64,000 nt of DNA from Verrucomicrobiota bacterium. Its GTDB lineage: Bacteria; Verrucomicrobiota; Verrucomicrobiia; Limisphaerales; UBA1100. The stretch covers positions 8,697 through 72,696 of the forward strand of contig JAOLZA010000004.1 in NCBI GenBank assembly GCA_028343615.1, read 5' to 3'. A model generated the notes under the pieces. The model made no database searches. It saw only the letters and a list, made by a program, of their open reading frames with translations, and was not told the DNA's origin. The translations under genes and the position numbers were made by a program. Positions 19,402 through 35,279 of the stretch are shown one piece after another (position 1 is the stretch's first letter; every line of letters starts with the position of its first letter).

Positions 19402-19409
19402 GACCTGAC

Positions 19410-20393: not shown

Positions 20394-20847
20394 TCTCTCC
20401 ACAAACTGCAGGCATTTCAAGGCACTCGTCAACCATATAGCTAGATGCAAACCGCCATTCTGAGTCATGTTTAGACCAATTTTAATCGCTCATAAATGTG
20501 TGAAACTGAGGATCTGGATTTCAAAATGTGTATATCCTTATCTGATTATTTAATTTCTATCTTCGGAGCACTGTGTTCAAGCGAAATAGAATGATTCTGG
20601 CTTGATTCACCTTCGAATGACTGATGTTTTTGTTAAAGATTGTAGGGTTTACCCAACCAGACTTTCCTGAAAAATCTGCGCGATCGATCATTCCGAACTG
20701 TGCGGGATCAGTTCGGTTGTCGAAAATTCTGAACGCAAGATCTCAACGAAGGCTGGCCCGGGTTTGCCAAACTTGATTGGTCTTCCACAGCTCTGGCGAA
20801 TATGCTAGAATAACATCCGTATCAATAAATTCCACGCAATTAGTAGT

Positions 20848-21618
20848 ATGTCGAGTCATGACAATTCAGAGTTATCAGTTAAATCTGGTGGAGTCGCAAA
20901 AGCGCTATACAGATGGCTCCTTGCGCCCGCGATCATCAGGAAGGGGACCCAAGAGATCCCGCTCATTCGTAAGTACTTGGGCAAGGAACCGGGCGTCTTT
21001 GTCGAAGTCGGAGCAAACGACCCGGTAATAGACTCGCAGACATGGGCCCTGGAATCCGAGGGCTGGACCGGTCTTCTTGTGGAGCCGCTCGCGGAGAGGG
21101 CGAGCGAGCTCCGCGAGCAACGCACAGCCATCGTGGAAGAGGTAGCCTGCGGACCACCGGAACTGGACGGAACTGAAGCGGAATTCCATGTCTCCCACCG
21201 GAAGGATGCCCTCTCTTCCCTCAACCCCGCCGGAGCCAAGCCCGGCAACAAGTTTTCTGAAACTCGACATGTGCCTGTTCGTACGCTTGATTCCCTTGTA
21301 AAGAAAGCTGGCCTCAAGCAAATCGATTTCCTTTCGATCGACGTTGAAGGTTTCGAGTCCGAGGTACTCAAGGGAGCCACCCTTGAGCGCCTTCGTCCGC
21401 GTCTTTGCCTGATCGAGGATTGGGCTATTGATTGGACGGTGCACCGGCAGATGACTGCGGCGGGATACAAGCGCGTGCGGCGAACGCAGGTTAATTCGTG
21501 GTACGTTCCTCGGGAAGCTCGGTTTCCCATCTCCATTCTCGGCCACTTCCAGCTATTTAGGAAATATGTTTTGAACGTACCCATCCATCGTATGCGCCAC
21601 CATGCCACCGCCGGATAG
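20848..21618 (+). CDS. FkbM-family SAM-dependent methyltransferase
   Basis: VFVEVGANDPVIDS...GWTGLLVEP and FLSIDVEGFESEVLKG match the FkbM family. The two long antisense ORFs over the same interval have no motifs. Confidence 0.75.
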   Translation: MSSHDNSELSVKSGGVAKALYRWLLAPAIIRKGTQEIPLIRKYLGKEPGVFVEVGANDPVIDSQTWALESEGWTGLLVEPLAERASELREQRTAIVEEVACGPPELDGTEAEFHVSHRKDALSSLNPAGAKPGNKFSETRHVPVRTLDSLVKKAGLKQIDFLSIDVEGFESEVLKGATLERLRPRLCLIEDWAIDWTVHRQMTAAGYKRVRRTQVNSWYVPREARFPISILGHFQLFRKYVLNVPIHRMRHHATAG

Positions 21619-21626
21619 TTTCCAAG

Positions 21627-22805
21627 TTATTGGTTACGCTCGGCAATTATTTCGCACAACTTGTCTCCCGCTTCACCCAAAACCTCTCCCCAACCTCTGC
21701 CGTCCTTTCCTGCAATCCGGACACTGGGATACCAAGGTGTTCGGTCGCGCGTTACTGGCCATTCGCGCCTTAATATATCATCCCGCACCACAATAGTTGG
21801 CACATCGAGCGCACCCGCCACATGGGCCAGCGTGTTGACAATGGTGATCACGCCGTCCAAGGCGGCGACTTGGGCCGCAAAGTCATCCATATTCACCAAC
21901 TGATCAATGGATTCATCGGCGATTATATTTTCATGGCCCAGAATTTTAAGATGAGAGTTCACATTTCCATATTGCAAGGAGACGAATCCTGCTTGGGTCC
22001 GTCTGATGAAATCCGCCCAATCACTCACTTCTGGGGTCTCCTTGGCAAAATGGGAACTGTACCAGCAAATCCCGATTAGTCGCTGGTGTCTCCGGCTACG
22101 CGAATCCGCCCTGTACTTTTGCCTCAATTGCTCGACGAGAGCTTGGTCTGCCACTAGGAAATCACCCGTCTCACCCGGGGGCGGGGCGGTTGGTAAAAAG
22201 TGGGCCAACATCCGATCCGGGGAAATGACATAATCAAAAGCGCCTTCATCGATTGCTTCCGTTGCCGCCTGTACCTTGAGGGTGGGAAAACTGCGGTGAA
22301 ATGTTTTAACTAAGCGCGGCTCCAGCACCGCCATCACTCGGCTGGCTTGGCGGGTAATATGGTGCATTAAGCGTGCCCGCCGGTATCCAACCGCGAGGCC
22401 TTGGCGGTCCGAGGGTTGTAACTGAATCAGCACGTTCTTGCCCTGAAGATCTTCCCCTCTCCATTCGTTGGGAATTGCTTTGGGTTCCCTATTCAATTGG
22501 TTTATCCAGAGCCGCTGGCTATCTTCATAACATCCCAATTGAGAAAGCACAGAAATCATTTCTTTGAGAGTGTGGCGATGCCCACACGCTTCGGCAAGGG
22601 CGGTGACGGTCTTTACCCGTTCCCGCACCAACGCCCAATCGCGGGTCGGGATCGATCGGCGATAGGCGGAATAGGCCAGGCCCAGTTTGGGGTTGCGTGC
22701 GAAACGTGCCACTTGCCGCCGCAGTTGCTTTCCTTTGTCCCGCCGCCACGATATGATATGCCAAGCGTCTTCCGAAACCCAGCGGGGTCGTTTCTTAAAC
22801 AGCAT
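21627..22805 (-). CDS. Uncharacterized protein with a GT9-like/GT-B C-terminal half
   Basis: WRGEDLQGKNVLIQL..., IGICWYSS..., FVSLQYGN and DDFAAQVAALDGVITIVNTLAHVAGALDVPTIVV resemble the heptosyltransferase-like fold seen in TPR-GT proteins. The usual EQGLGD motif is degenerate. Confidence 0.5.
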   Translation of the reverse strand: MLFKKRPRWVSEDAWHIISWRRDKGKQLRRQVARFARNPKLGLAYSAYRRSIPTRDWALVRERVKTVTALAEACGHRHTLKEMISVLSQLGCYEDSQRLWINQLNREPKAIPNEWRGEDLQGKNVLIQLQPSDRQGLAVGYRRARLMHHITRQASRVMAVLEPRLVKTFHRSFPTLKVQAATEAIDEGAFDYVISPDRMLAHFLPTAPPPGETGDFLVADQALVEQLRQKYRADSRSRRHQRLIGICWYSSHFAKETPEVSDWADFIRRTQAGFVSLQYGNVNSHLKILGHENIIADESIDQLVNMDDFAAQVAALDGVITIVNTLAHVAGALDVPTIVVRDDILRREWPVTRDRTPWYPSVRIAGKDGRGWGEVLGEAGDKLCEIIAERNQ

Positions 22806-22828
22806 ATTCGGAAAAGTTAACGATGAAT

Positions 22829-23557
22829 TCAGGGTATTATGAGCTGGCGAACTCGCTCCAGGTCTTCAGGGGTGTCCACGGAAATCGCCCCATCAGCCGG
22901 TGTGGACACCATAGCGACATCGTAACCGTGCTCAATGAAGCGTAGCATCTCGACGCCCTCGGCCAGTTCAACCGGTCCAGGCTGATGGCTTCCGAAGATT
23001 TTCAGTCCTTCCTTGCGAAACGCGTACAGGCCGAGTTGCCTGCGGTGGGTGACTGAGCCGCTCTTGGGAAAAGGAATGGGCAATCGAGAATACGCCAAAG
23101 CCAATTCGCCTATGGTTAGTGAAACTTTGACCGCATTCACATCCACCGCTTCCGAGGGGTGAGAGATCTTCTGGTAGCCATTAGAGGCCATCACGTTGTC
23201 GTTCTGATTCTCGACCATCGCTTTGGTTACCAACTCGATGGCCAGCGGATCGATCATCGGTTCATCGCCTTGGACATTGACGTATATCTCCGCGTCGATG
23301 GAATCCATACACTCCACCAATCGGTCGGTACCCGTGGGATGATCGTCCCGCGTCATCACCACCGGCAACTCCAAGCGTTGGCAGGCTTCCTTAATGCCAG
23401 GGTCGTCCGTCGCAATCCAAGTTTCGTCCAGTATCCCCACCTTGGATGCCTGACGATGCACGTGCCACATCATCGGTTTGCCGTGAATATCCGCCAGCGA
23501 TTTTCCGGGGAAACGCGAGGCTCCGTGTCGGCACGGTATGATTCCCACAACTTTCAT
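22829..23557 (-). CDS. kdsB: 3-deoxy-manno-octulosonate cytidylyltransferase (CMP-Kdo synthetase)
   Basis: IIPCRHGASRFPGKSLADIHGKPMMWHV, ATDDPGI, HPTGTDRLVEC, VNVQGDEPMIDP. The start is at MKVVGI (cat at 23555-23557), giving an ATGA overlap with the HAD gene stop. Confidence 0.8.
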   Translation of the reverse strand: MKVVGIIPCRHGASRFPGKSLADIHGKPMMWHVHRQASKVGILDETWIATDDPGIKEACQRLELPVVMTRDDHPTGTDRLVECMDSIDAEIYVNVQGDEPMIDPLAIELVTKAMVENQNDNVMASNGYQKISHPSEAVDVNAVKVSLTIGELALAYSRLPIPFPKSGSVTHRRQLGLYAFRKEGLKIFGSHQPGPVELAEGVEMLRFIEHGYDVAMVSTPADGAISVDTPEDLERVRQLIIP

Positions 23558-24210
23558 CAATCGCTTGCGTCCTCCTCCGATAACAGCAAATCCGAAATCT
23601 CTGAGAGTATCCAACAATTCTCCTTTGGCTGATCCCCGTATCCCCAAGTGGCGTGAGCGTAGTCGACTCTCGCCCGCTGGGCTGCTTCGAAATCGGAATC
23701 CATATCTCCAATGTATAAGGTTTCTGAGGGATCCACATTTGCTTGTGCCATGGCCATCAGCAAATGATCGGGGGCGGGTTTGCCTCGTAGACGCTCGTTC
23801 GGAGATCGGACACTGTCGAAATCCACCGCCAACATGGCGATAATTGCGTTGGTGCGCATTTTGTCCTTGGAAGTGACGATTCCTATCTTGAATCCCTCCG
23901 AACTCAGCTGGCTCAACACGCGCTGAACATAGGGGTAGAAACTCAGGAGATCCATTCGCTCCATGGACGCGACCCGGAAAGTGGACTCAATAACATGGTC
24001 GGGATCCGCGACTCCAATTCTCTGGAGGATGGTCTGAAACGGGCGACCGATTTCTCTGAAATAAGCTTCAAAATCCACCTCAATCCCGGCTGTTGCCGCC
24101 GCCTTTTTCCAAGCATAACACATATTCTCGCGGGAATTTAACAACACCCCGTCCAAGTCGAACAGAATCAATCGCTTCCCGGCCAGTTTTTCCCTGTTGG
24201 GTTGATTCAT
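23557..24210 (-). CDS. HAD-superfamily phosphatase (phosphoglycolate-phosphatase-like)
   Basis: LILFDLDGVLLNS (DxD nucleophile motif), VTSK, IGDMDSDFEAA. Confidence 0.75.
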   Translation of the reverse strand: MNQPNREKLAGKRLILFDLDGVLLNSRENMCYAWKKAAATAGIEVDFEAYFREIGRPFQTILQRIGVADPDHVIESTFRVASMERMDLLSFYPYVQRVLSQLSSEGFKIGIVTSKDKMRTNAIIAMLAVDFDSVRSPNERLRGKPAPDHLLMAMAQANVDPSETLYIGDMDSDFEAAQRARVDYAHATWGYGDQPKENCWILSEISDLLLSEEDASD

Positions 24211-24567
24211 TTTTTGGATTTAACCGAAGGGCTGTGTCGGCGGCTGGGGTGAAACCTCTTTACTGATTGGAGGGGCAATCAAATACACCGTCAAGCTTAA
24301 AGCTGATCATGACTGATTTGTCTGGCGCTCCCAAAAGAGTGTCGCTGGAGTGGGAGAAAGTAAGGGCGGGGTAAGGAATCGTTGACTTTAGAACTGTAAT
24401 GGTCGAGTGTTTCCCCCCCTCTTGGCTTGAGGATGAGTAAAAAAGGAGCATGACTGTGATTCCAAAAAGTGGGGCAGTTTTTCTGTAAATCCCAAAAACG
24501 GATAGTAAACGGGTCACCATCACACTTGAAAAGACTGGGCTAGCCCCTAAGCAGATATGTTTGAAAG

Positions 24568-25794
24568 ATGCCCCCAAATCTAGATGAGAGGGGTTTGAGT
24601 AATAACAGCAAAAGTCATATGAAAAATTTGAAACGCTATTTGCTGTTAATCAAGTTTTCCACAAAATGGTTTTTCAAGAACGTGGTGAATTTTTTTGTGA
24701 TTATCTATTGCTTAGTAAGGGGGAAGCATTCGCAACGAAGGAGTATATTCTATAGGGAATTGATCTCTGCACAAAACGTCCTATCATATACTAATTCCTA
24801 TTGGAGAATTCTTGATAAGCAATACAGTGCCAACATTGAAATATACAAGGAGTATGTAGAGGAAAATTCTTATGATATTGTGCGCAACCGGCAAGTCGAA
24901 ATGCTTAAGGCACTGGATCGCGTAATACAGAAAAAAAGTTTTGATTCAATCGTGGGAGACGAGAAAAATTCAGAATTAACCTGGGTAATGTCAACCGGGA
25001 GATGTGGGGTAGATGCACTAGACAGATATTTTAAATTGTCTAAGGATCATTTTTCAATACATAGAGAATTCTTTAAAGATGAAATGTATTACGCACACAG
25101 ATCTACGTTGACAACAAAAAGTTATGTGTTTCATAAATTCTTCTATAATAACGCTTCAGATGCGGAAATCGAATCAATAATAAAAACTTTTCTTAGCAAA
25201 AGGATTAAAACCATCAGCCGCAGGAAGGGGAAAAAGTGGGTGTTCTGTGAGCACTGTGACACCGTGTGGCTGCCTATTATTCTAAGAATATTTCCATCCT
25301 CTAAAATTGTTTTTTTATCAAAGAACCCAAAAGAGGTCATAAGGTCATACATGAGTAAGCAGCAATACTCTAGCGCGCAGGAAATGCCCCTCTCTCCATC
25401 GCAGGATAAACTGATGTTCAAAACGCTATTTGGGCTTATGTGCTGGTTTTACACATATATCAACATGTATATTAGCATCCATTGCGAGCTCATTGGAAAT
25501 GATCAACGTATATTAAGTGTCAATGGAGAAGATTTAATGGGGGCTAACTTGGATACATATGAAAAATTAAATAAATTCTTGGGCATGAGTATTTCCCAAA
25601 AACAGTATATGGAACATTTTGGGGGAAGATATAATTCAAAATCTCATAGATCGAAATACTCTGGATTTCCGGAAATCGAGAAATGGCCGGATTCATATCA
25701 GGATTTATTAGAATTATTTTCCACCCAAATAGATGGCAAGATAGATATTAGCCCCCGCGCAAATGCTTGCGCTTTGGCCTCTGGAAATCAGTAG
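24568..25794 (+). CDS. Membrane-anchored putative sulfotransferase
   Basis: N-terminal hydrophobic anchor (YLLLIKFSTKWFFKNVVNFFVIIYCLV). STGRCGVDAL resembles the 5'-PSB loop, and IVFLSKNPKEVIRSYMS resembles the 3'-PB (RxPxDxxxS) region. It lies immediately upstream of the PAPS-synthesis genes. The true start may be MKNLKRY at 24619. Confidence 0.55.
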   Translation: MPPNLDERGLSNNSKSHMKNLKRYLLLIKFSTKWFFKNVVNFFVIIYCLVRGKHSQRRSIFYRELISAQNVLSYTNSYWRILDKQYSANIEIYKEYVEENSYDIVRNRQVEMLKALDRVIQKKSFDSIVGDEKNSELTWVMSTGRCGVDALDRYFKLSKDHFSIHREFFKDEMYYAHRSTLTTKSYVFHKFFYNNASDAEIESIIKTFLSKRIKTISRRKGKKWVFCEHCDTVWLPIILRIFPSSKIVFLSKNPKEVIRSYMSKQQYSSAQEMPLSPSQDKLMFKTLFGLMCWFYTYINMYISIHCELIGNDQRILSVNGEDLMGANLDTYEKLNKFLGMSISQKQYMEHFGGRYNSKSHRSKYSGFPEIEKWPDSYQDLLELFSTQIDGKIDISPRANACALASGNQ

Positions 25795-25806
25795 CTTTAC
25801 TTTGCG

Positions 25807-26343
25807 ATGTTACCAAACCAGTGCAGGATAATTTGGTTCACAGGACTTTCAGGGGCGGGAAAATCTACGTTGGCAGATGAAGTCTTAATGTACCTGACTG
25901 CAAAGGGTGTGAAAAGTAGACTCATTGACGGAGATGATGTGCGCAAAAGCATGAAGGTCCAAAAATTCACAAAATCTGAAATAATTCAGAACAATGAACG
26001 TGTCATTCAGTTATGTAATGATATAAAGGACGAGTTCGAGTATCTGCTCGTAGCTGTAATTGCCCCCTTTAGCCAAACAAGACAAAAGGCAAGGGAAGCT
26101 TTTGGTGGTAATTATGTGGAAATATACGTGAAAGCCAGCATCGAGATCTTGGAAGGCAGGGACACAAAAGGCCTTTATCAGAAAGCTTTAGCCGGAAGAT
26201 TGAACAACCTGATAGGAGTAGACCCAGAAGTCCCATATGAGGAGCCTCGGTTTCCCGAACTTATCGTTGATACGGATAAAGAAACAGTGGGAACATCCGT
26301 GAAAAAAATAGTCAAATTTATCAGTAATAAAACCGAGTTATGA
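25807..26343 (+). CDS. cysC: Adenylyl-sulfate (APS) kinase
   Basis: IWFTGLSGAGKSTLA P-loop and IDGDDVR, typical of CysC. There is a 4-nt overlap with the next gene. Confidence 0.9.
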   Translation: MLPNQCRIIWFTGLSGAGKSTLADEVLMYLTAKGVKSRLIDGDDVRKSMKVQKFTKSEIIQNNERVIQLCNDIKDEFEYLLVAVIAPFSQTRQKAREAFGGNYVEIYVKASIEILEGRDTKGLYQKALAGRLNNLIGVDPEVPYEEPRFPELIVDTDKETVGTSVKKIVKFISNKTEL

Positions 26344-28529
26344 ATAGGGCAAAAATCATTGCGACATTGGGCCCATCGTCCCTTTCAAAAGAGATCGTGG
26401 CACAAATGGATCATTTGGGTGTTGATTTGTTTCGTATCAACCTATCACACACAAACATTAATGATTTAGAAGATATAATTACAATGGTTCAGAGATGGAC
26501 TTCAAAGAAGATTTGTATCGATACCGAGGGGGCTCAACTTAGGGTGGGTCGAATCAACAATAATTCGATGCGCTTCAACTCAGGAGAGCAAATTAGATTT
26601 TGCGGTTCAGAGGGGGTTCATGACGGATCCCTCATTCCGCTTAATGTTCCCAACCCACATGAGATTTTGCGGGTCGGAGACCTATTGAAAATTGATTTTA
26701 ATTCAGTGCTTGTGCAAATAACTGAAATTGATGAACTGCAACCAGTTGCCCGCGTGCTTAAGAAGGGGGCAGTTGGAAATAATAAAGGAATAGGAATTGA
26801 CAGGGCGATTAGTTTGCCAGCGTTCACCGACAAGGACATGTCGGCATTCGAAATAACCAAACAACTAGGGCTGGATACAGTTTTCCTTTCATTTTGTTCT
26901 AGCGGTGGAGATGTGTTGGCCTTGAGGAAAATTTACAATTATCCAATTAGTATTATTTCAAAAGTTGAAAGCCGGTTGTCGATATTCAATTTGGATTCAA
27001 TTTGTGCTGAAAGTGACGCTGTTCTAATTGACCGGGGGGATTTATCAAGAGACGTCCCGCTAACAAAAATACCCTTTGCTCAATCACATATTTTAGATAC
27101 AGCAAAACAATTGGATGTTCCCGTTTATGTGGCAACTAATTTACTTGAGACCATGGTTGAAAAGGCTGAGCCAACTCGAGCAGAGATTCATGATGTTGTG
27201 AGAACTTTGCAAGATGGTGCCGCTGGACTCGTTCTGGCTGCTGAAGCAGCAATTGGATTAAATCCCCCGAACTGTGTTCGGGTCCTATCGAGTCTCATTA
27301 ATGAAGTTGAAAATAAGCCGGGTCAATTTGAGGAGGGTTTTTTATTCGAAAACCCTTCAGGCATCATCATTGCCCCTCATGGTGGACATTTGGTTAATCA
27401 ATATCTTAATGAAGACACCAAATTGAATGTTTCTGACTTAATCACTCTAGACTCAAGTGAAAAAATGAAATCGGACGTGGTTCAGATAGCCAACGGGGTA
27501 TATTCACCTCTAGATAGGTTTATGAATCTCGAAGAGTTGTCTTCGGTTTTAGAGAAAAATCAGTTGCTAGACGGCAATGTGTGGACGATGCCAATAATAT
27601 TGCAGGCAAAAAAGATAGATAAATCAAAAATTATCGGTCAAGAATACATTGCGCTTCGATCTGCGCATGACAATGAGGCTTATGCGGTTATCAAGTCGCC
27701 TAAGGTAGAAGAGATCTCGGATATGAATGGAGTATCTCAAGGCTGGTTTGGAACTGCAGATAAAAGGCATCCTGGAGTCAAAGAGTTTTTTGCGGAAGGC
27801 AATTATATTGTTTCTGGAACGGTTTTATTAATCGAGAAGCCTGCGCCCAGCTCTGCACGTTGTTATGATTTAACACCGAGGCAGACGCGCAGCATTTTTA
27901 GTGACAATGGATGGTCAAACATCGTGGGTTTTCATACACGGAATGTGCCACATCGTGCCCATGAGTATATCCAGTTGAAAGCACTGAACGAATCTAAATC
28001 AGATGCAATTTTTATTTCTCCGGTAACCGGATTAAAGAAGTCAGGTGATTTTTTAGCAATGCCGGTAATCGAGTGTTACAACGCATTGATACGGAGTAAT
28101 TATTATGGTGCATACGGTGCCGTGATAGGTGCCTTTAATACCTATTCAAGGTATTGCGGCCCTAGAGAGGCTGCGTTTACTGCAATTTGCCGGAAAAATT
28201 TCGGCTGTAACCATTTTATTGTGGGCAGAGATCATGCAGGGGTGGGTGATTTTTATGCCTCGGATGCTTCAGTAAAAATTTTTGACTCATTAGATCTCGG
28301 GGTCAACATACTTAACTCCGAACCCGTTTCATGTGTCGATGGTGAATTGGTTTCAGGGGAAGCTGCGGACATCAGTGATGGGAAAACAGTGAAACCAATT
28401 AGCGGATCGGCCGTCCGGGATTGTCTTGTGCGAGGGAAGGAAATCCCTGAATATTTAATGAGAAAGAATATTTCAAGGATACTGTATGACATGATAGAGC
28501 ACGATGCAGATTCTATGTTTCAAGCATAG
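26340..28529 (+). CDS. Fusion protein: N-terminal pyruvate-kinase-like barrel (about aa 1-330) plus C-terminal sulfate adenylyltransferase (ATP sulfurylase)
   Basis: PK-like motifs: KIIATLGPSS, FRINLSH, IDTEGAQLR, ISKVES, IDRGDLS, VATNLLETM, PTRAEIHDVVRTLQDGAAGLVLAAEAA. Sat motifs: FHTRNVPHRAHEYIQ and IVGRDHAGVG. Confidence 0.8.
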   Translation: MNRAKIIATLGPSSLSKEIVAQMDHLGVDLFRINLSHTNINDLEDIITMVQRWTSKKICIDTEGAQLRVGRINNNSMRFNSGEQIRFCGSEGVHDGSLIPLNVPNPHEILRVGDLLKIDFNSVLVQITEIDELQPVARVLKKGAVGNNKGIGIDRAISLPAFTDKDMSAFEITKQLGLDTVFLSFCSSGGDVLALRKIYNYPISIISKVESRLSIFNLDSICAESDAVLIDRGDLSRDVPLTKIPFAQSHILDTAKQLDVPVYVATNLLETMVEKAEPTRAEIHDVVRTLQDGAAGLVLAAEAAIGLNPPNCVRVLSSLINEVENKPGQFEEGFLFENPSGIIIAPHGGHLVNQYLNEDTKLNVSDLITLDSSEKMKSDVVQIANGVYSPLDRFMNLEELSSVLEKNQLLDGNVWTMPIILQAKKIDKSKIIGQEYIALRSAHDNEAYAVIKSPKVEEISDMNGVSQGWFGTADKRHPGVKEFFAEGNYIVSGTVLLIEKPAPSSARCYDLTPRQTRSIFSDNGWSNIVGFHTRNVPHRAHEYIQLKALNESKSDAIFISPVTGLKKSGDFLAMPVIECYNALIRSNYYGAYGAVIGAFNTYSRYCGPREAAFTAICRKNFGCNHFIVGRDHAGVGDFYASDASVKIFDSLDLGVNILNSEPVSCVDGELVSGEAADISDGKTVKPISGSAVRDCLVRGKEIPEYLMRKNISRILYDMIEHDADSMFQA

Positions 28530-28899
28530 ATTTTCCCGCAAAGATATCCCGCTTGCCCAATTTGCTCCGGAGCACTGAGGTTGAGGGTGAATCTGGATTC
28601 TCAATTAAACCCAGATGGCTAGTGTGTGCGTTTTTTAAATAAAACAGAGCACACAAATGGCACTAATCCTCAAGACACAGTTTGCTCTTCCTGTATACAT
28701 TTAGATAGACTTAGAGCCTTCCTATGATAAGCTTGTCTGTTTCTCTGTGAGCACCCCTGTAAACTCTTGAAGGCTTACGGGTTTGCCGTATTAGATTATC
28801 GATTGGGGATGAGCAGATTCTTTTGGGAAAGAAAGGCTCAGATGCCGACAGAGATTTACTCAACCACTCCCGCCTCTTGGATATGATTGTAGTTTCCTG

Positions 28900-29625
28900 T
28901 TAATTGAAATTGCAAAAAGAGACTAACCCATAAATCAGGATGATAAAGGTTATCGCGTTTTGAAATTTACTTTCGTTAACTTTTTTCATTAAGGGTGCAT
29001 TAAAAACTCTATATACAAGAAGGGATAAGGGCGGGAATAAAAGGTAATTTAAATTGAAGGCATCCGGTCGCGCAAAGGCCAAGACGGAGAGCTGCATGAT
29101 ACAGAAAAGACAATATACAAAGGCTATATTTACCCGCATGGAGTTTTTATTTTTATGGATGGCGGCCATGAGGATAGTCAAAGGACCTCCCCCCATGTTC
29201 GACAGGCCGTGGACTATGCCGGTCAGCAAATAGAAATACCTAGGGTTTTGATTGATGAATAAGGATAGGTGTGCCATTGAGGTTTTGAAAGTTCTCAAGA
29301 GGCCTATCATGATCAAAAATGATCCCACGATCTTTGTTACATCCCAAGCCTCTTCATAATTTAATAATATTACCAAACTGACCATCGCCGGGAGTAATGT
29401 GTAAAGGCATGCATTGCCTTTTGCCTCAACTAAATGGTGGTGGCTGTATAACTGGGCCAGCGAAATCGAAAGGGATGCCGGCAGTACAATCCATAATGTT
29501 TCACTGTAAGAATATCCCAGAAAAAGGAGTGTCGGAGTTCCGAAGAGAAGGAGGCCTACTCCGAAAACCGATTGGATCAAGCTCAAAAGTACAATGATGA
29601 GCATTAACGTTAAAACTGCTGACAT
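28900..29625 (-). CDS. TauE/SafE (TSUP, DUF81) family anion permease
   Basis: Polytopic 241-aa protein. The N-terminus LIIVLLSLIQSVFGVGLLLFGTPTLLFLGY and the internal repeat GLSNMGGGPLTILMAA are typical of the TSUP family. Confidence 0.7.
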   Translation of the reverse strand: MSAVLTLMLIIVLLSLIQSVFGVGLLLFGTPTLLFLGYSYSETLWIVLPASLSISLAQLYSHHHLVEAKGNACLYTLLPAMVSLVILLNYEEAWDVTKIVGSFLIMIGLLRTFKTSMAHLSLFINQNPRYFYLLTGIVHGLSNMGGGPLTILMAAIHKNKNSMRVNIAFVYCLFCIMQLSVLAFARPDAFNLNYLLFPPLSLLVYRVFNAPLMKKVNESKFQNAITFIILIYGLVSFCNFN

Positions 29626-29899
29626 GGCAAATAATTCTATGCAAAAATACGAATCCAGATTTAAGTTAGGGCAAAATGGTATATATTCTCCAGAAAGAAC
29701 TTTTCTGCCAACAACTGGGATCAGGATCTTACGGTCCGGACAGATTCTATCTCACCATATTAGTTGATAAAAGGCTAGGGAGGATTTGTGCCGCATGCAA
29801 CTTTCAAACTTGGGCAAAGCGGTATTGGTGCGAGGGAGTTGTCGTTTCCCGAGCATACTCGGAAACCAAGCGGATCTAGTCGATATATCACCGGTCGCG

Positions 29900-30643
29900 C
29901 TAAGGTTTGATGAATTGTCGGCCGGTGTAGTCCAAATACTTCAGGTCCACTTGAATATTTCTTTGGTCAAAAAATTCGTGCAATGCCTTGCGCGCCCCGG
30001 CCCAGTGACCATAATCGTCTATTTGAATTACACCCCCTGATGAAACTTTATCGTACAGTTGTTCAAGGCACACCCAAGTGCTATCGTGCCAATCACCATC
30101 CAGATGGAGCAGAGCAATTTGTTGGATTTCTGAACAGGGCAACGTGTTTTGAAATAATCCCTTAACCATTTGGACGTCATCAAGAATTTGAAATTTTTCA
30201 AACAATCTCCGCACTTCATCATAATCTCCGCGGCAATCCCCTTCAAAGGATTTGGCTAAATCAAAGTCGGGGTCTTCTTGGCTGGGGGCTGGCAATCCTT
30301 CAAACGTGTCATAAACCCAAATTTTTCGGGACGTTTGGATTTGGCGACAGGTCAATCCCATTAAAGCCGCGCAGCCTCCGCGCGCGGTTCCACATTCCAC
30401 CAAATCTCCCTTCACTTTCCGGCGAATCACATCTTGCACGCCACGAAAAATTCCCTTCAGACGGGGGTGGCTCATCATACTGAAAGGGCTGACCTGTTTG
30501 TATAAACGGCCAAATTCACCTGGGGCAACGTGGTCTCGAAAGCCCCCCAATCGATTTAGGAAATCTGCCCAGCGATTACGCTGCTTCTTGCGCTCTGCCT
30601 TGAACAATTCGTGGGAGGTGCCTACTGGAGGTGAATTCGTCAC
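29900..30643 (-). CDS. TylF/macrocin-O-methyltransferase-family sugar O-methyltransferase
   Basis: GDLVECGTARGG and LLHLDGDWHDSTWVCLEQLYDKVSSGGVIQIDDYGHWAGARKALHEF. Confidence 0.8.
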   Translation of the reverse strand: MTNSPPVGTSHELFKAERKKQRNRWADFLNRLGGFRDHVAPGEFGRLYKQVSPFSMMSHPRLKGIFRGVQDVIRRKVKGDLVECGTARGGCAALMGLTCRQIQTSRKIWVYDTFEGLPAPSQEDPDFDLAKSFEGDCRGDYDEVRRLFEKFQILDDVQMVKGLFQNTLPCSEIQQIALLHLDGDWHDSTWVCLEQLYDKVSSGGVIQIDDYGHWAGARKALHEFFDQRNIQVDLKYLDYTGRQFIKP

Positions 30644-30844
30644 GTGCTGGGATCATAGGCGGTTGCTCTTAAAATTCAAGCCGAAGAGAGGTGTCCCTGC
30701 ATTTTCGCCGGAATTTTATCCTGCCTGAAAGGGCTTGCTGTAGGGATCGGCGTTTTTTACCATCCAGAAGGAGGTGTCGCCGACCCTTGCCGTACTTTGT
30801 CAACCTAAATACGTTGCGTTTCCAACTGGGAAAAATCTTAGATC

Positions 30845-31522
30845 ATGGGTAGCCGCCCCTGTGCAAATACGTTGAAGCCAGAAATGACCGATGAGGAATT
30901 GTCGGGATTAAGGGAATGGTCTCAATCGGCAAATCTGAATGGCAGACATTTGGAAATTGGTACTGCGGCAGGAGGCACGCTATGCTTCATGATGAATTGC
31001 TTTGAGGCCAATGCGTGCCCGGAATTTACCGTGGTGGACACGATGAGCTATTTTGCCGGTCAGTTAGATATTGTAAAACGCAATTTGTCCCAGAACGGAT
31101 TAGACACGCGGCCGGTCGATTTTCTTGTCATGTCCAGTGATGCGGCGTTTGCTCGTGCGGAGGCGGAGGGCGCGCGTTTTGATTTCATTTTGGTTGATGC
31201 CTCGCACAAGATTCGCCATGTGATGGCGGACTTGCGTTGGTTGCGTCTGCTTAATGTTGGAGGGCTGGCATGTTTTCATGATTACACCGCCAGATTCAAG
31301 GGGGTGCGCTGGCCAATCGATAGGTTCCTGCAACGCAACTCGCAATTTAGTCGGGTGGCGTTGGCGGGTAGCTTGCTCTGTATTCGCAGGGATACGACTT
31401 CTGCACGATCGGAAGTCACGTCATGCGACCGCATATGGGCGTCGCTGTGGTCCCCCATCTTGCAACTTGACTTGAGTTTGCAGAAACGACTCAAGTCAAA
31501 ACGCAACTCCCGTCCGGAATGA
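30845..31522 (+). CDS. Class I SAM-dependent methyltransferase (Methyltransf_24-like)
   Basis: HLEIGTAAGGTL, FDFILVDASH, LLNVGGLACFHDY. Confidence 0.7.
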   Translation: MGSRPCANTLKPEMTDEELSGLREWSQSANLNGRHLEIGTAAGGTLCFMMNCFEANACPEFTVVDTMSYFAGQLDIVKRNLSQNGLDTRPVDFLVMSSDAAFARAEAEGARFDFILVDASHKIRHVMADLRWLRLLNVGGLACFHDYTARFKGVRWPIDRFLQRNSQFSRVALAGSLLCIRRDTTSARSEVTSCDRIWASLWSPILQLDLSLQKRLKSKRNSRPE

Positions 31523-32655
31523 GCACCCAACGGTCATGGCGGATTGTGCACTCGGAGGCTTCTCTTGGCTGGGGAGGGCAAGAGCATCGTGTGTTAGCGG
31601 AGTTAATCGGTTTCCGAAAACGGGGAGCTTGGGTTGCATTGTTGGCTCCTGAGAATAGTGAGATTTTCCAACGTGCGAGGGTCGACGGAATCAAAGTTCA
31701 AATACTCGATACTCGAAAGTTTAGATACCTCTTCACCGCGCTGCGCCTGAAACGGTGGCTGCGGGCAAACAATGTCCAGGTGGTCAACACCCATAGCTCG
31801 CGGGACGGGTATTTGGTGGGTGCGGCTGCCCGATTGGCGCGGGTGCCGTTGTTGATTCGCTCGCGGCATATCGATGTGGACTATCCTAATCCGCGGATCA
31901 GCCGCCATGCCTTTACGACTTTCGCGGATCACGTGTTGACAACCAGCGAGAAAATCACCGGCCACCTCAAGTCCACATTTTGTCTTCAGGACGACCACGT
32001 CTCAACCGTTCCCACCGGGATTGATTTGGCAAGATTTGCGCCCGACGGCCCGAAGGCGGATTTGTTCGAGGAGAGCAACCCGGATCAGTATCCAGTCGTG
32101 GGAATGGTCTCGGTCTTGCGTTCATGGAAAGGGCATTCGGTTTTTCTTGAGGCGGCGAATTTGCTGAAGGCTCAGGGCGTCAAGGCCCGTTATGTCATTG
32201 TTGGGGAAGGCCCGGTACGAGAATCGGTTCTTCAGAAAATTTCCGAATGTAATTTGAGTGCGGAAACCTCACTCACGGGCTATCGGGAGGACATCCCCGA
32301 AGTGCTTCGAGCACTGGATGTACTAGCCATCCCATCGACTGGACATGAGGGTATCCCGCAAATCGGGTTGCAGGCACTGGCTTGTGGAACATCGGTGGTG
32401 GGAAGTGATGCGGGGGGGATTCCCGAGATCATCCAACCCGGGGAAACGGGACGGATTGTAAAGACAAGTGATGCCGGGCAGTTGGCCGATGCCATTGCGA
32501 CTTCACTTATGGACAAGGAGGAATCACTTCGGATGGCGGCCAATGGTCGGCAACTGGTCGAGCACAGTCACGGGGTTGGTCATATGCTGAATCGACTTGA
32601 GAATATTTACGCAGGTTATGTAGGGGTGAGTCAACCAATGAGGATTCTGTCGTAG
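31519..32655 (+). CDS. Glycosyltransferase family 4 (GT-B)
   Basis: WRIVHSEASLGWGGQEHRVL, VSVLRSWKGH, EGIPQIGLQALACGTSVVGSDAGGIPEII. Confidence 0.8.
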   Translation: MSTQRSWRIVHSEASLGWGGQEHRVLAELIGFRKRGAWVALLAPENSEIFQRARVDGIKVQILDTRKFRYLFTALRLKRWLRANNVQVVNTHSSRDGYLVGAAARLARVPLLIRSRHIDVDYPNPRISRHAFTTFADHVLTTSEKITGHLKSTFCLQDDHVSTVPTGIDLARFAPDGPKADLFEESNPDQYPVVGMVSVLRSWKGHSVFLEAANLLKAQGVKARYVIVGEGPVRESVLQKISECNLSAETSLTGYREDIPEVLRALDVLAIPSTGHEGIPQIGLQALACGTSVVGSDAGGIPEIIQPGETGRIVKTSDAGQLADAIATSLMDKEESLRMAANGRQLVEHSHGVGHMLNRLENIYAGYVGVSQPMRILS

Positions 32656-32717
32656 AGGAAATGATGTTCAAAGTCACTTAGGTTTGATATGGGTGGGCGG
32701 CGTTTGTTGCCCATCGC

Positions 32718-33407
32718 ATGAAACAAAATCAGTCTAAAACTCAAGTTTCGGAATTCTACGAGGAGTTCCAGTCTCATGGGAAATATGACTACTTATATGG
32801 CGATGAAGACCGTAAAGAACTTTATGTAGATCTGATTGGAAAGGGCCATCGTATTCTCGAGGTGGGCTGCCGCGCCGGCAACTTAACCCAATACTTCCAC
32901 GAGGGTAATGAGGTGGTGGGCATTGATGTCGATCGCAACGCGCTTAAGGAATTTACCAAGCGCCTAGGCCTGACAGGCCATTGGGTTGATGCGGATTCAG
33001 AGGACTTCCCGTTTGATGACGCGCAATTTGACGTGGTGGTCTTCTCGGAGGTGATGGAGCATTTGCGTTTCCCGAAAAAGGCACTCAAGGAAATTGCCCG
33101 CGTGTTAAAGCCGGATGGGCGGCTGATTGGATCCGTCCCAAATGCGTTTCGGCTCCGCAATCGTCTGAAATTCTTGTTGGGAAAGCCATACGAAGTTGAC
33201 GCCTCCCACTTGAGATCTTATTCGCATACCTTGTTGCATAAAGAATTGTCCTCATGCTTCGAACAAATTGATATTCATCCCATCTCTGGCCACTTGTTAG
33301 GCGGAGGTAGCACGGGCATCCCGGTATACACTTGGCTGCCGTTCCGCATCCGGGCGCTGTTTGCATTGGATCTCGTGTTTGTTGGCGTGGGGAAAAACGT
33401 GAAATAA
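32718..33407 (+). CDS. Class I SAM-dependent methyltransferase (Methyltransf_11-like)
   Basis: ILEVGCRAGNL (motif I), FDVVVFSEVMEHL, LKPDGRLIGSVPN. Confidence 0.75.
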   Translation: MKQNQSKTQVSEFYEEFQSHGKYDYLYGDEDRKELYVDLIGKGHRILEVGCRAGNLTQYFHEGNEVVGIDVDRNALKEFTKRLGLTGHWVDADSEDFPFDDAQFDVVVFSEVMEHLRFPKKALKEIARVLKPDGRLIGSVPNAFRLRNRLKFLLGKPYEVDASHLRSYSHTLLHKELSSCFEQIDIHPISGHLLGGGSTGIPVYTWLPFRIRALFALDLVFVGVGKNVK

Positions 33408-34501
33408 TGAACATCGCCTTGGCACGCAGGGAGTTTGGTGCGGGCGGGGGAGCAGAGTTATATTTGCAACGGCTCATCGGTGCTTTGCGGGATAAAGGGC
33501 ACGAGGTGGTGTTGGTCACCGCGGATGCGAAGGCGAAACCGGAGGGTGTGGAAGTGCGGCGGGTGCCGCTTTTCGGCAGTCGTTCGGCGCGTATTGCGCA
33601 GTTCGACGCCGGCGTGCAAACGGTGCTGGCGAGCAAACCCGTGGATTGCCTGTTCAGCCTCGAGCGACTTAGCCGACAGGATGTATTGCGGGCGGGCGAT
33701 GGGGTGCACGCCTCGTGGATGGAACAGCGGCGGCGGTTTTCGCCGGCGTGGAAACGCTGGCTGGTGGGACGTGGTGCGTTTCATCGGGCAATGATGGATT
33801 TGGAAACGCGTGCGTACTCGCCCGCCAATACCCGCCATTTGATTATCAATTCCGAAATGGTGGCGCGTGATGTTCGCGCGCGGTTTGGGTTTCCGGATGA
33901 GCGGGTACACATGGTGCGTAATGGGGTGGAGTTGGAGCGTTGGCAGCGAGGTGACCGCGAAGCTCAACGTGCAAAGTGGGGATTGAGGCCGGATGAATTT
34001 CTGCTGCTGTTCGCCGGCTCCGGTTGGGAACGGAAAGGGTTGCCCTTTGTCATTGCTGCACTGGAAAAAATATCGGATTCCAGCCTCAAGCTTGTTGTTG
34101 CCGGAAAGGGCCGGTCACCTCGTAATGCACCGTCGGGCGTCCGGTTTGTGGGGCCTATGGCAGATTTAGAAAACGCGTATGCGGCGGCGGATTTATTTGT
34201 ATTTCCTCCCGTTTATGAGCCTTCGGCCAATGTAGTGTTTGAGGCATTGGCGGCGGGGTTGCCTGTGGTGACGAGCGCTTGCAACGGCGCGGCGGAGGTG
34301 ATTGAGGAAGGAATCAACGGCACCGTGGTGACGGCCCCCTCAGACATCGAAGCACTCGTTGATGCGATCCAATCCTGGCGTGCGTGTCCTAATGCGCGAC
34401 CGGTACCGGTGAAGGCGGACTTGAGTTTGGAACGCAATGTGCGCGAGACTTTGGCGGTGTTGGAATTAGCGGCGGCTGAGAGGGCCGCAGAGGAACGATG
34501 A
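33407..34501 (+). CDS. Glycosyltransferase family 4 (WaaG/RfaG-like)
   Basis: The start is at MNIALARREFGAGGGAELYLQRL (TAATG overlap at 33405-33409). YEPSANVVFEALAAGLPVVTS is an EX7E-like motif. Confidence 0.8.
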   Translation: MNIALARREFGAGGGAELYLQRLIGALRDKGHEVVLVTADAKAKPEGVEVRRVPLFGSRSARIAQFDAGVQTVLASKPVDCLFSLERLSRQDVLRAGDGVHASWMEQRRRFSPAWKRWLVGRGAFHRAMMDLETRAYSPANTRHLIINSEMVARDVRARFGFPDERVHMVRNGVELERWQRGDREAQRAKWGLRPDEFLLLFAGSGWERKGLPFVIAALEKISDSSLKLVVAGKGRSPRNAPSGVRFVGPMADLENAYAAADLFVFPPVYEPSANVVFEALAAGLPVVTSACNGAAEVIEEGINGTVVTAPSDIEALVDAIQSWRACPNARPVPVKADLSLERNVRETLAVLELAAAERAAEER

Positions 34502-35259: not shown

Positions 35260-35279
35260 GTGGCTTACAAGGCGGGCGC

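What the first reader, a model, noticed from the sequence alone, without database searches (positions are those of the whole stretch)
26340..28529. Pyruvate-kinase-like barrel fused to ATP sulfurylase
A single 729-aa ORF joins two parts. The first is a PK-type (beta/alpha)8 domain that retains the recognisable catalytic signatures (FRINLSH, DTEGAQLR, KVES, DRGDLS, ATNLLETM, PTRAE) but lacks the PK C-terminal regulatory domain. The second is a complete sulfate adenylyltransferase (HTRNVPHRAH, GRDHAGVG). The cysC stop overlaps its start. ATP sulfurylase catalyses a thermodynamically unfavourable step, and APS kinase releases ADP. A fused PEP-dependent phosphotransferase could regenerate ATP locally and pull PAPS synthesis forward. 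Alternatively it may generate a different activated donor. Known Sat fusions are with APS kinase or a GTPase, and I do not recall a PK fusion.
Basis: partly seen in the sequence, partly recalled or inferred. Interest (0 to 1): 0.7.

Follow-up and report, generated by a model that had tools for sequence, protein, structure and literature searches.

The report
Pyruvate-kinase barrel fused to ATP sulfurylase
One real, widely conserved but apparently unstudied gene joins a catalytically intact pyruvate-kinase barrel to an ATP sulfurylase inside a sugar-sulfation cassette, most likely so that phosphoenolpyruvate keeps ATP up and ADP down while the activated sulfate donor PAPS is made.

Summary
ORF 26340-28529 (+, 729 aa) is PK barrel (aa 2-312, A+B domains, no C domain) + PUA_2 + ATP-sulfurylase. 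Its ATG overlaps the cysC stop (ATGA).

It is not an artefact. At least 571 species-level genomes across very distant phyla encode a relative, and the 80 best are all full-length fusions. Two cultured rhizobia carry it as well.

The 14 canonical PK catalytic/ligand positions checked are all kept, and the PK A-domain is the best conserved part of the protein. The PK part belongs to a distinct C-domain-less subfamily with near-invariant changes (rabbit K114->E/Q, E117->Q, A292->D, S361->A). That subfamily also occurs as PK+Sat+CysC, as PK+CysC, as a split PK/Sat pair and, most often, as a ~336-aa gene next to an APS kinase.

Neighbours are sulfotransferases, APS kinases, CysQ-like phosphatases, TauE permeases and glycan genes. 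No APS/PAPS reductase appeared among the most frequent neighbour families.

Best explanation: a PEP-driven ADP-to-ATP recycler built into a PAPS-supply module for surface-glycan sulfation. In vitro, PAPS synthesis needs exactly such a PK/PEP system because APS kinase is blocked by an ADP-APS dead-end complex.

The activity itself is inferred, not shown. I found no paper describing the fusion. I rate it a new variant of a known kind, with moderate to high interest.

The parts
24568..25794 (+). Sulfotransferase (408 aa), first gene of the + strand run. The sulfotransferase fold lies at aa ~189-347; the N-terminal ~190 aa have no family match.
   Evidence: Pfam Sulfotransfer_3 (1.7e-07) and Sulfotransfer_1 (7.4e-07). 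No NCBIfam match. The orthologue is collinear in L001 and L002.
25807..26343 (+). cysC, adenylyl-sulfate (APS) kinase, 178 aa. Its stop overlaps the next start (ATGA).
   Evidence: Pfam APS_kinase 8.3e-38. TIGR00455 148.3 bits, above the 138.7 cut-off. Overlap seen.
26340..28529 (+). The fusion gene: PK-like barrel + PUA-like domain + ATP sulfurylase, 729 aa.
26343..27275 (+). PK A+B domains (aa 2-312; the last A-domain helix runs to ~aa 324). Catalytic and ligand residues: R32, N34, S36, H37, D61, T62, R68, K149, K208, E210, R232, G233, D234, T266, E302. Subfamily-specific residues: E63, Q66, D231, A300.
   Evidence: Pfam PF00224 193 bits. Best PDB sequence hits are true pyruvate kinases, aa 1-332. 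Residue mapping on E. coli PykF. Foldseek aligns ~340 columns to PK A+B domains.
27276..27368 (+). Inter-domain segment (aa 313-343): the end of the last A-domain helix plus a poorly conserved linker. It takes the place of the PK C domain.
   Evidence: Mean pairwise identity 0.36 with 0 of 31 columns invariant. pLDDT is 64-82 in this stretch.
27369..28487 (+). Complete homomeric-type ATP sulfurylase: PUA_2 at aa 344-499 and the catalytic domain at aa 509-716. It carries FHTRNVPHRAH (531-541) and GRDHAGVG (629-636).
   Evidence: Pfam. PDB sequence hits 8a8d 3.9e-65 and 1v47 2.1e-59 over the whole half. Foldseek TM 0.89-0.90 to 8a8d/8a8g, normalised by target length.
28900..29625 (-). TauE/SafE (TSUP) family permease, 241 aa, convergent with the fusion. 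It is a candidate sulfate importer for the cassette (inferred).
   Evidence: Pfam TauE 1.1e-11. TauE-like genes lie next to PK-like/cysC genes in many unrelated loci. The TSUP family includes a sulfate transporter (PMC5840216). The gene is absent from the collinear L001 and present in L002.
24200..30200 (.). Low-GC cassette (36-45% GC against 52-60% in the flanks) holding the sulfation genes, set inside an LPS/surface-glycan locus.
   Evidence: Composition profiles. Glycan genes in the flanks. A weaker GC dip at the fusion gene is also seen in relatives L001 and L002.

Best explanation
The gene encodes a bifunctional enzyme of a self-contained PAPS-supply and sulfation module that sits inside a surface-glycan (LPS/Kdo-type) locus of a PVC-group bacterium.

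Proposed cycle:
1. Sulfate enters, possibly through the adjacent TauE-family permease.
2. The C-terminal ATP sulfurylase makes APS + PPi from ATP and sulfate.
3. The translationally coupled CysC makes PAPS + ADP from APS and ATP.
4. The N-terminal C-domain-less PK barrel uses PEP to turn that ADP back into ATP.
5. The upstream sulfotransferase spends PAPS on a glycan acceptor.

Removing ADP would prevent the APS-kinase E-ADP-APS dead-end complex. It would also keep APS low, which I recall (own knowledge, not checked here) is a strong product inhibitor of ATP sulfurylase. The large free energy of PEP is added to an otherwise uphill activation. Loss of the allosteric C domain would leave the PK unregulated, active whenever the cassette is expressed.

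Shown here: the domain architecture, intact catalytic residues in both halves, strong purifying selection on the PK active site, and a conserved genomic link of this PK subfamily to Sat, APS kinase, sulfotransferases and glycan genes.

Inferred: the PK reaction itself, ADP as its acceptor, the TauE role and the glycan acceptor.
For: Architecture and full-length matches of both halves to solved enzymes.

PK residues, in 117 fused homologues only 45-55% identical overall:
- 12 positions are invariant in all 117: R32, N34, S36, D61, R68, K208, E210, R232, G233, D234, T266, E302.
- T62 is T in 98, S in 17, I in 2. K149 is K in 115 of 117.
- The nucleotide-site residues P12 and H37 are also kept.

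Constraint: the PK A-domain is the most conserved region, with 0.61 mean pairwise identity and 34 of 220 columns invariant, against 0.56 and 21 of 208 for the Sat catalytic domain.

Rosetta-stone pattern among the 149 closest PK-domain relatives:
- 86 are PK+Sat.
- 3 are PK+Sat+APS kinase.
- 2 are PK+APS kinase only (P0158 confirmed by Pfam).
- About 35-39 are stand-alone.
- A split PK/Sat gene pair occurs in L081.

Stand-alone genes: of 50 complete ~336-aa genes, 36 have an APS-kinase-family gene within 400 nt on the same strand. Of the 24 with readable flanks on both sides, 18 do.

Fused genes: cysC lies within 300 nt in 40 of 80 genome loci. The immediate-neighbour Pfam census gives APS kinase 34, sulfotransferases ~17, CysQ-type Inositol_P 6 and sulfatase 5, plus polysaccharide genes. 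No APS/PAPS reductase appears among the 25 most frequent families on either side.

Biochemical precedent: in vitro, PAPS synthesis by PAPSS1 almost fails without PK/PEP because of the APS-kinase ADP-APS dead-end complex (PMC9885120).

The same gene order (polysaccharide gene, PK-Sat, APS kinase) occurs in cultured Ensifer adhaerens.
Against: No activity has been measured for any member.

The subfamily differs from classical PKs at four near-invariant positions at or near the metal, cation and proton-relay region: rabbit K114->E/Q, E117->Q, A292->D, S361->A. Cation requirement or substrate could therefore differ.

In 36 of 80 fusion loci no cysC lies within 8 kb.

Some stand-alone members (L082, L083, L085) are translationally coupled to sulfotransferase-like genes in nonulosonic-acid clusters with no sat or cysC within 5 kb. 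A simple APS-kinase helper role does not explain these by itself.

Rhizobia that carry the fusion presumably also have a housekeeping PK (own knowledge, not checked here), so the need for a dedicated one rests on a kinetic or channelling argument.

Confidence: 0.6

Rival explanations
1. The PK-like domain is a PEP-dependent phosphotransferase with a different acceptor from ADP. Candidates are another NDP, or a sulfonucleotide-related compound such as PAP or a 3'-phosphorylated nucleotide. It would then feed a distinct activated donor, or a PAPS-recycling route, rather than simply regenerating ATP.
For: The subfamily carries near-invariant substitutions at rabbit positions 114, 117, 292 and 361. 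Their combination matches neither the K+-dependent set (T113/K114/E117/T120) nor the K+-independent set (L113/Q114/K117) described in PMC8835810. Some stand-alone members pair with sulfotransferase-like genes plus His_Phos_1 and Metallophos phosphatases, with no sat or cysC nearby. No cysC lies within 8 kb in 36 of 80 fusion loci.
Against: All residues that bind PEP, Mg2+ and the nucleotide phosphates in classical PKs are kept, including R68 (rabbit R119), K149 (K206), H37 (H77) and P12 (P52). The commonest partner is the ADP-producing APS kinase. If the domain replaced APS kinase, the two should avoid each other; instead they are fused or adjacent.
Confidence: 0.2
2. The PK-like domain is mainly structural or regulatory. 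It would act as an oligomerisation scaffold or a PEP/energy sensor that gates ATP sulfurylase, in analogy to the catalytically inactive APS-kinase-like allosteric domain of fungal ATP sulfurylases.
For: It occupies a terminal position on Sat, as regulatory domains do in other Sat fusions (own knowledge of Penicillium ATP sulfurylase, PDB 1i2d/1m8p, which appear). Loss of the PK C domain removes the usual PK tetramer interface, so the assembly is new.
Against: All the canonical catalytic residues are kept, and the A domain is the most conserved part of the protein. The same domain exists as a free-standing ~336-aa protein in many loci, where it cannot be a regulatory appendage.
Confidence: 0.08
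3. The ORF is an artefact: two adjacent genes (pyk fragment and sat) joined by an assembly or frameshift error in this contig.
For: None beyond the general possibility. The junction (aa 313-343) is the least conserved segment.
Against: The same one-frame architecture is found in all 120 best protein clusters and in the 80 best of at least 571 species genomes, from many independent projects. It also occurs in finished replicons of cultured Ensifer and Sinorhizobium. Sat begins with its normal N-terminus (PHGG, aa 346) right after the linker. The AF2 model is confident overall (pLDDT 86.8, pTM 0.73).
Confidence: 0.01

Closest known systems
Bifunctional PAPS synthases (Sat-APS kinase fusions: metazoan PAPSS1/2; bacterial Sat/CysC such as Aquifex aeolicus, PDB 2gks)
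   Same: Consecutive steps of PAPS synthesis are joined in one polypeptide, using the same Sat fold. 2gks and PAPSS1 chains are hit by the Sat half. Some relatives of this protein add an APS kinase at the C-terminus (P0215, P0236, P0247).
   Different: In the window the fused partner is a PK barrel, not APS kinase, and cysC is a separate, translationally coupled gene. A PEP-using domain is, as far as I know, not part of any described PAPS synthase.
CysDN, the GTPase-coupled ATP sulfurylase of E. coli and NodPQ of rhizobia (own knowledge)
   Same: It has the same logic of attaching an energy-releasing reaction to the unfavourable sulfate adenylylation.
   Different: It has an unrelated fold (CysD PP-loop ATPase plus an EF-Tu-like GTPase). 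In CysDN, coupling is conformational and uses GTP. Here it would work by mass action and ADP removal, using PEP.
APS kinase-Sat-pyrophosphatase triple fusions of some algae/stramenopiles (own knowledge; Patron et al. 2008, Bradley et al. 2009, not re-read here)
   Same: A helper enzyme that removes a product is fused to Sat so as to pull the pathway.
   Different: The helper there removes PPi. Here the proposed helper removes ADP and restores ATP.
Classical pyruvate kinases (E. coli PykF 1pky/4yng, M. tuberculosis 5wrp, PKM2)
   Same: A+B domain fold and all catalytic, metal and nucleotide-phosphate residues.
   Different: No C-terminal allosteric/tetramerisation domain. Four near-invariant subfamily substitutions (K114E/Q, E117Q, A292D, S361A in rabbit numbering). 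The score is below the NCBIfam pyruvate-kinase equivalog cut-off (223.7 against 306.4). The genes sit in sulfation modules, not in glycolytic contexts.
Engineered PK/PEP ATP-regeneration modules used for enzymatic PAPS synthesis (PMC9885120)
   Same: It uses exactly the proposed chemistry and rationale: PK + PEP removes ADP and relieves the APS-kinase dead-end complex.
   Different: That is an in-vitro mixture of separate commercial enzymes. Here nature appears to have hard-wired the module by fusion or operon linkage.
Sulfated capsule gene clusters of marine bacteria that carry sulfotransferase and APS kinase genes (Vibrio sp. KMM 8419, Cobetia marina; PMC11641403, PMC11766843; titles and abstracts only)
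   Same: PAPS-pathway genes are embedded in polysaccharide loci.
   Different: The term 'pyruvate kinase' does not occur in either paper.

Membership tests
Pyruvate kinase (EC 2.7.1.40) family | PK (beta/alpha)8 barrel with inserted B domain (Pfam PF00224) | tested here: met
   193 bits, model positions 2-327 of 328. Foldseek aligns ~340 columns to PK structures.
Pyruvate kinase (EC 2.7.1.40) family | Catalytic and ligand residues (rabbit R72, N74, S76, D112, T113, R119, K206, K269, E271, R293, G294, D295, T327, E363) | tested here: met
   All 14 are present in the query. Twelve are invariant in 117 homologues; T113 is T/S/I and K206 is K in 115 of 117.
Pyruvate kinase (EC 2.7.1.40) family | C-terminal alpha/beta domain (PF02887) carrying the allosteric site and the tetramer interface | tested here: not met
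   No such hit at E<=0.01. Alignments to PKs stop at about aa 325-332. The position is taken by Sat.
Pyruvate kinase (EC 2.7.1.40) family | Score above the curated equivalog cut-off (NCBIfam TIGR01064) | tested here: not met
   223.7 bits against a cut-off of 306.4. The short-PK model NF005234 gives 134.9 against 564.
Pyruvate kinase (EC 2.7.1.40) family | Monovalent-cation signature (E117 with T113/K114/T120, or K117 with L113/Q114/L-I-V120; PMC8835810) | tested here: not met
   The subfamily has T/S113, E/Q114, Q117 and mostly T120 (V in the query), so it fits neither set.
Pyruvate kinase (EC 2.7.1.40) family | PEP + ADP -> pyruvate + ATP activity | not testable with these tools
   Needs an enzyme assay.
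Homomeric ATP sulfurylase (Sat, EC 2.7.7.4) | PUA-like N-terminal domain plus ATP-sulfurylase catalytic domain | tested here: met
   PF14306 115.6 bits and PF01747 197.8 bits. 8a8d 3.9e-65 over aa 8-379 of the half. TM 0.89-0.90.
Homomeric ATP sulfurylase (Sat, EC 2.7.7.4) | Active-site motifs QxRN..HxxH and GRDHAG | tested here: inconclusive
   HRAH and GRDHAGVG are present, and R534, N535, H538, H541, D631 and H632 are invariant. The first residue of the motif is H, not Q (FHTRN), in the PK-associated Sat proteins. The effect of this change is unknown.
Homomeric ATP sulfurylase (Sat, EC 2.7.7.4) | Score above the curated cut-off (TIGR00339 / NF003166) | tested here: not met
   258 against 322.95, and 311.7 against 387. 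It is a divergent subfamily rather than a non-member.
Bifunctional PAPS synthase (Sat + APS kinase in one chain) | APS kinase domain in the same polypeptide | tested here: not met
   The window protein has no PF01583 domain; cysC is the separate upstream gene. Relatives P0043, P0045, P0105, P0215, P0236 and P0247 do carry it.
PAPS-dependent glycan sulfation cassette | Sulfotransferase, Sat and APS kinase co-located within polysaccharide genes, without APS/PAPS reductase | tested here: met
   Window genes 24568-28529 within an LPS/glycan locus. The same pattern recurs in the related loci, with no reductase among the 25 most frequent neighbour families.

The most novel reading that the evidence does not exclude
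The C-domain-less PK subfamily (E/Q114, Q117, D292, A361 signature) may not be just an ATP regenerator. It could be a new PEP-dependent enzyme of sulfonucleotide metabolism, for example one that re-phosphorylates a PAP- or APS-derived nucleotide so that PAPS is recycled without passing through AMP. Alternatively it could form a channelled, PEP-powered 'PAPS synthasome' that uncouples sulfation from the cell's adenylate charge. This would explain why the domain is linked in turn to Sat, to APS kinase and to sulfotransferase-like genes.
Probability: 0.12. Interest if true: 0.85.

Novelty: new variant of a known kind. Interest (0 to 1): 0.6.

Why it matters
PAPS is the universal sulfate donor. 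Its synthesis is limited by an uphill first step and by ADP/APS inhibition of APS kinase. If the fused PK barrel recycles ADP with PEP, it would be a third natural way of driving sulfate activation, beside GTP-coupled CysDN and fused pyrophosphatase. It would also be the natural counterpart of the PK/PEP regeneration that biocatalysis groups add by hand.

The module is widespread. At least 571 species genomes encode a relative, spanning PVC bacteria, Marinimicrobia, CPR bacteria, anammox bacteria, rhizobia, actinomycetes and one archaeal-labelled MAG. It marks glycan-sulfation loci that are at present annotated only as 'pyruvate kinase' or 'sulfate adenylyltransferase'.

It therefore offers three things:
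- a better annotation rule;
- a compact enzyme set for PAPS production;
- a marker for bacterial sulfated surface glycans in the ocean and in soil.

Tried and rejected
- **Assembly or frameshift artefact:** rejected.
- **Degenerate pseudo-PK:** rejected on residue conservation.
- **Assimilatory sulfate reduction role:** not supported, because no APS/PAPS reductase appears among the 25 most frequent families in the neighbour census.
- **PK domain as a replacement for APS kinase:** unlikely, because the two co-occur or are fused.
- **Divergent CysC-like neighbours (25-30% identical) as some other kinase:** checked. All ten best-match adenylyl-sulfate kinase models over their full length, mostly just under the equivalog cut-off. 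A Cj1415-like alternative substrate cannot be excluded for those.
- **Exact-protein look-up of the window protein:** not on record.
- **Rfam scan of the window:** no hits.
- **Promoter and terminator scans of 24100-30000:** nothing above the shuffled expectation.
- **Phage collection:** only partial PK-like hits, no fusion.
- **PLSDB annotation for the Ensifer replicon:** empty, so I called its ORFs myself.
- **AFDB fold search:** library unavailable.
- **Model coordinates:** not exposed, so distances between active sites could not be measured.
- **Literature:** six full-text searches for a described PK-Sat or PK-PAPS-synthase fusion found nothing relevant. The library lacks most subscription journals, so absence is not proof.
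Full report
**1. The observation**

The ORF at 26340..28529 (+) is real and 729 aa long. Pfam finds three domains in order:
- the pyruvate-kinase barrel PF00224, aa 2-312, 193 bits, covering model positions 2-327 of 328;
- the PUA-like domain PF14306, aa 344-499;
- the ATP-sulfurylase domain PF01747, aa 509-716.

No PK C-terminal domain is detected.

The upstream 178-aa ORF (25807..26343) is an APS kinase that passes the TIGR00455 cut-off (148.3 against 138.7 bits). Its TGA overlaps the fusion's ATG in the tetranucleotide ATGA. A 408-aa sulfotransferase (24568..25794) precedes cysC. A TauE/SafE-family permease (28900..29625, minus strand) follows the fusion.

**2. Both halves look like working enzymes**

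The N-terminal 332 residues align end to end with the A+B domains of solved pyruvate kinases: Zymomonas 7ueh at 1.5e-45, M. tuberculosis 5wrp, E. coli 1pky and PKM2. The C-terminal 395 residues align over their full length with the compact ATP sulfurylases of Methanothermococcus thermolithotrophicus (8a8d, 3.9e-65) and Thermus thermophilus (1v47, 2.1e-59).

An AlphaFold2 model built on 31 homologues is confident (mean pLDDT 86.8, pTM 0.73). Foldseek matches its C half to 8a8d/8a8g (TM 0.89-0.90 by target length) and its N half to PK A+B domains (~340 aligned columns). No solved chain covers both halves.

I used E. coli PykF as the numbered reference; its sequence was verified as identical to PDB 4yng. 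All 14 PEP, metal, K+-site and nucleotide-phosphate positions checked are present in the query. In query numbering they are R32, N34, S36, D61, T62, R68, K149, K208, E210, R232, G233, D234, T266 and E302. Twelve are invariant in 117 fused homologues that are otherwise only 45-55% identical. The exceptions are T62 (T 98, S 17, I 2) and K149 (K in 115).

The PK A-domain is the most conserved part of the protein. Mean pairwise identity is 0.61 with 34 of 220 columns invariant, against 0.56 and 21 of 208 for the sulfurylase catalytic domain, and 0.36 for the linker. A decayed or purely structural PK remnant is therefore very unlikely.

**3. It is not an artefact, and it is not rare**

- All 120 best protein clusters carry the PK + PUA_2 + ATP-sulfurylase combination. 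Of these, 116 are 699-782 aa, three of about 906-911 aa add an APS kinase, and one is a 483-aa fragment.
The 80 best are all full-length fusions.
- Those 80 come from Verrucomicrobiota, Planctomycetota (including anammox bacteria), Marinimicrobia, Ignavibacteria, Bacteroidota, several CPR lineages, a Woesearchaeota-labelled MAG, Bdellovibrionota, Delta- and Alphaproteobacteria, Omnitrophota, Elusimicrobia, Nitrospinae and Actinomycetota. The last group includes the cultured Salsipaludibacter albus.
- Full-length copies also lie on large secondary replicons of cultured Ensifer adhaerens and Sinorhizobium chiapasense. In Ensifer the order is Wzy-type polysaccharide gene, two unknown genes, PK-Sat (736 aa), APS kinase.

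The window itself is collinear at about 76% nucleotide identity with a Verrucomicrobiota MAG (L001) over window 18200-20251, 20845-28529 and 29897-37739. The tauE segment has no counterpart in L001 but is present in the next relative, L002.

**4. The PK part belongs to a distinct subfamily tied to PAPS synthesis**

An exhaustive search with the PK domain alone gave 1756 representative proteins at E<=1e-30. The 149 closest that I classified score 183-369 bits, whereas the best solved classical PK scores 159 bits. They sort as follows:

| Architecture | Count |
|---|---|
| PK+Sat | 86 |
| PK+Sat+APS kinase | 3 |
| PK+APS kinase only (P0158 confirmed by Pfam) | 2 |
| Stand-alone barrel-only, 320-380 aa | about 35-39 |
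| B-domain-less forms | a few |
| Other C-terminal partners (one with CBS, several unknown) | a few |

Fused or free, they share one signature: the canonical catalytic residues plus E/Q at rabbit position 114 (K in classical PKs), Q at 117 (E or K), D at 292 (A) and mostly A at 361 (S). Position 117 and its partners 113, 114 and 120 decide K+ dependence in classical PKs (PMC8835810). This subfamily fits neither published set.

Genomic context of the stand-alone members:
- One lies directly upstream of a separate sat gene, a split version of the fusion (L081).
- One lies between a sulfotransferase and an APS kinase (L084).
- In a metagenome census, 36 of 50 complete stand-alone genes have an APS-kinase-family gene within 400 nt on the same strand, and eight of those also have a TauE-like permease. 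Among the 24 with readable flanks on both sides, 18 have the kinase.
- The more divergent of these kinases still match adenylyl-sulfate kinase models over their full length.

For the fused genes, cysC is within 300 nt in 40 of 80 loci. The immediate-neighbour census is dominated by APS kinase, sulfotransferases, CysQ-type phosphatases, sulfatases and polysaccharide genes. No APS/PAPS reductase is among the 25 most frequent families on either side.

**5. Local context in the window**

The sulfation genes occupy a GC trough, 36-45% against 52-60% in the flanks. They sit within an LPS/surface-glycan locus that contains:
- a KdsD-like SIS+CBS isomerase;
- a GT9 heptosyltransferase;
- a CMP-Kdo-type cytidylyltransferase;
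- a HAD phosphatase;
- FkbM, TylF and other methyltransferases;
- GT4 and GT2 transferases;
- an MsbA-like ABC exporter.

The two nearest relatives show a weaker GC dip at the fusion gene. The cassette is therefore compositionally foreign but was not acquired very recently.

**6. How it most likely works**

The best-supported reading is a self-contained PAPS-supply module for glycan sulfation:
1. Sat makes APS + PPi.
2. CysC makes PAPS + ADP.
3. The PK barrel uses PEP to convert ADP back to ATP.
4. The sulfotransferase uses PAPS.

The biochemical rationale has experimental backing for the mammalian enzyme. Without a PK/PEP regeneration system, PAPS synthesis nearly fails, because APS kinase is trapped in an E-ADP-APS dead-end complex (PMC9885120). 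That the same PK subfamily is fused to Sat, to APS kinase or to both, and otherwise encoded next to APS kinase, is the pattern expected for such a helper.

Loss of the allosteric C domain would leave the enzyme unregulated. This last point is an inference. I put 0.6 on this mechanism, and over 0.9 on the broader claim that this is a genuine bifunctional enzyme of a PAPS/sulfation module.

**7. What does not fit neatly**

- The four subfamily-specific substitutions lie at or near the cation, metal and proton-relay region, so the cation requirement or the acceptor may differ.
- Some stand-alone members (L082, L083, L085) are translationally coupled to sulfotransferase-like genes in legionaminic-acid-type clusters. 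They are followed by histidine-phosphatase and metallophosphatase genes, and there is no sat or cysC within 5 kb.
- The Sat half of PK-associated sulfurylases carries FHTRN instead of the canonical FQTRN. I recall that this Q contacts sulfate in the yeast enzyme, but I did not check it.

These points keep alive a rival in which the domain phosphorylates another nucleotide. I give that 0.2. A purely regulatory role gets 0.08 and an artefact 0.01.

**8. Novelty**

- No NCBIfam model names the fusion; all hits fall below their cut-offs.
- Source annotations call it 'pyruvate kinase', 'sulfate adenylyltransferase' or 'hypothetical protein'.
- Six full-text searches found no description of it. The library lacks most subscription journals, so this is not proof of absence.

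The parts are well-known enzymes, and the proposed chemistry is what biocatalysis laboratories already assemble by hand. The natural, widespread hard-wiring of PEP to sulfate activation, and the distinct C-domain-less PK subfamily behind it, appear undescribed. I rate it a new variant of a known kind, with interest 0.6.

Noticed in passing
window 24200-30200: A sharp GC trough (36-45% against 52-60% in the flanks) covers the sulfotransferase, cysC, PK-sat, tauE and the start of the TylF methyltransferase. Relatives L001 and L002 show a weaker dip at the fusion gene. The cassette is compositionally foreign but was not acquired recently.
   Followed up: partly
window 28530-29896: The tauE-like permease segment has no counterpart in the otherwise collinear Verrucomicrobiota MAG locus L001 (~76% nt identity on both sides). 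It is present after the fusion in L002. This is an indel within the cassette.
   Followed up: partly
window 27930-27962 (aa 531-541): The Sat active-site motif reads FHTRNVPHRAH. The canonical Q of QxRN is replaced by H in nearly all PK-fused sulfurylases, and also in the separate Sat genes beside split PK-like genes (L081, L129). A more ordinary neighbour Sat (L101) has FQTRN. The consequence for anion binding is unknown.
   Followed up: partly
L082 4087-7483; L083; L085 4039-7398: Stand-alone PK-like genes overlap the end of a ~320-aa sulfotransferase-like gene inside legionaminic-acid-type nonulosonic acid clusters (NeuB, NTP-transferase+CBS, GFO_IDH_MocA, SDR). In L082 a His_Phos_1 gene and a Metallophos gene follow the PK-like gene; in L085 a Metallophos gene follows after a ~660-nt gap. 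No sat or cysC lies within 5 kb. The simple APS-kinase-helper idea does not explain this.
   Followed up: partly
proteins P0225, P0240, P0250, P0269 (246-262 aa); P0145; P0154, P0140, P0173, P0249: Variants of the same PK subfamily exist that lack the B (lid) domain. One is fused to CBS domains, and several have 150-310-aa C-terminal extensions with no Pfam match.
   Followed up: partly
window 24568-25140 (aa 1-190 of the sulfotransferase): The N-terminal ~190 residues of the 408-aa sulfotransferase have no Pfam or NCBIfam match. They may be an acceptor-recognition domain.
   Followed up: no
window 3906-7664 (-), 10596-12356 (-), 21627-22805 (-): Long ORFs of 1252, 586 and 392 aa have no Pfam family at the thresholds used. 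The 392-aa one lies inside the glycan locus and is conserved in L001 and L002.
   Followed up: no
window 38318-47026 and 49728-54533: There are two successive efflux-type modules, each with an outer-membrane factor (OEP) followed by HlyD-family membrane-fusion proteins. This looks like a tandem duplication of a tripartite exporter set downstream of the glycan locus.
   Followed up: no
window 57840-61172: A 1110-aa protein combines ThuA, NPCBM, DUF7133 and HEAT repeats. From memory, this architecture is typical of Planctomycetota and Verrucomicrobiota, which is consistent with the PVC affiliation of the closest loci.
   Followed up: no
window 37150-38031 (-): A eukaryotic-type Ser/Thr protein kinase gene lies directly after the MsbA-like ABC exporter of the glycan locus. 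It is conserved in the same position in L001.
   Followed up: no
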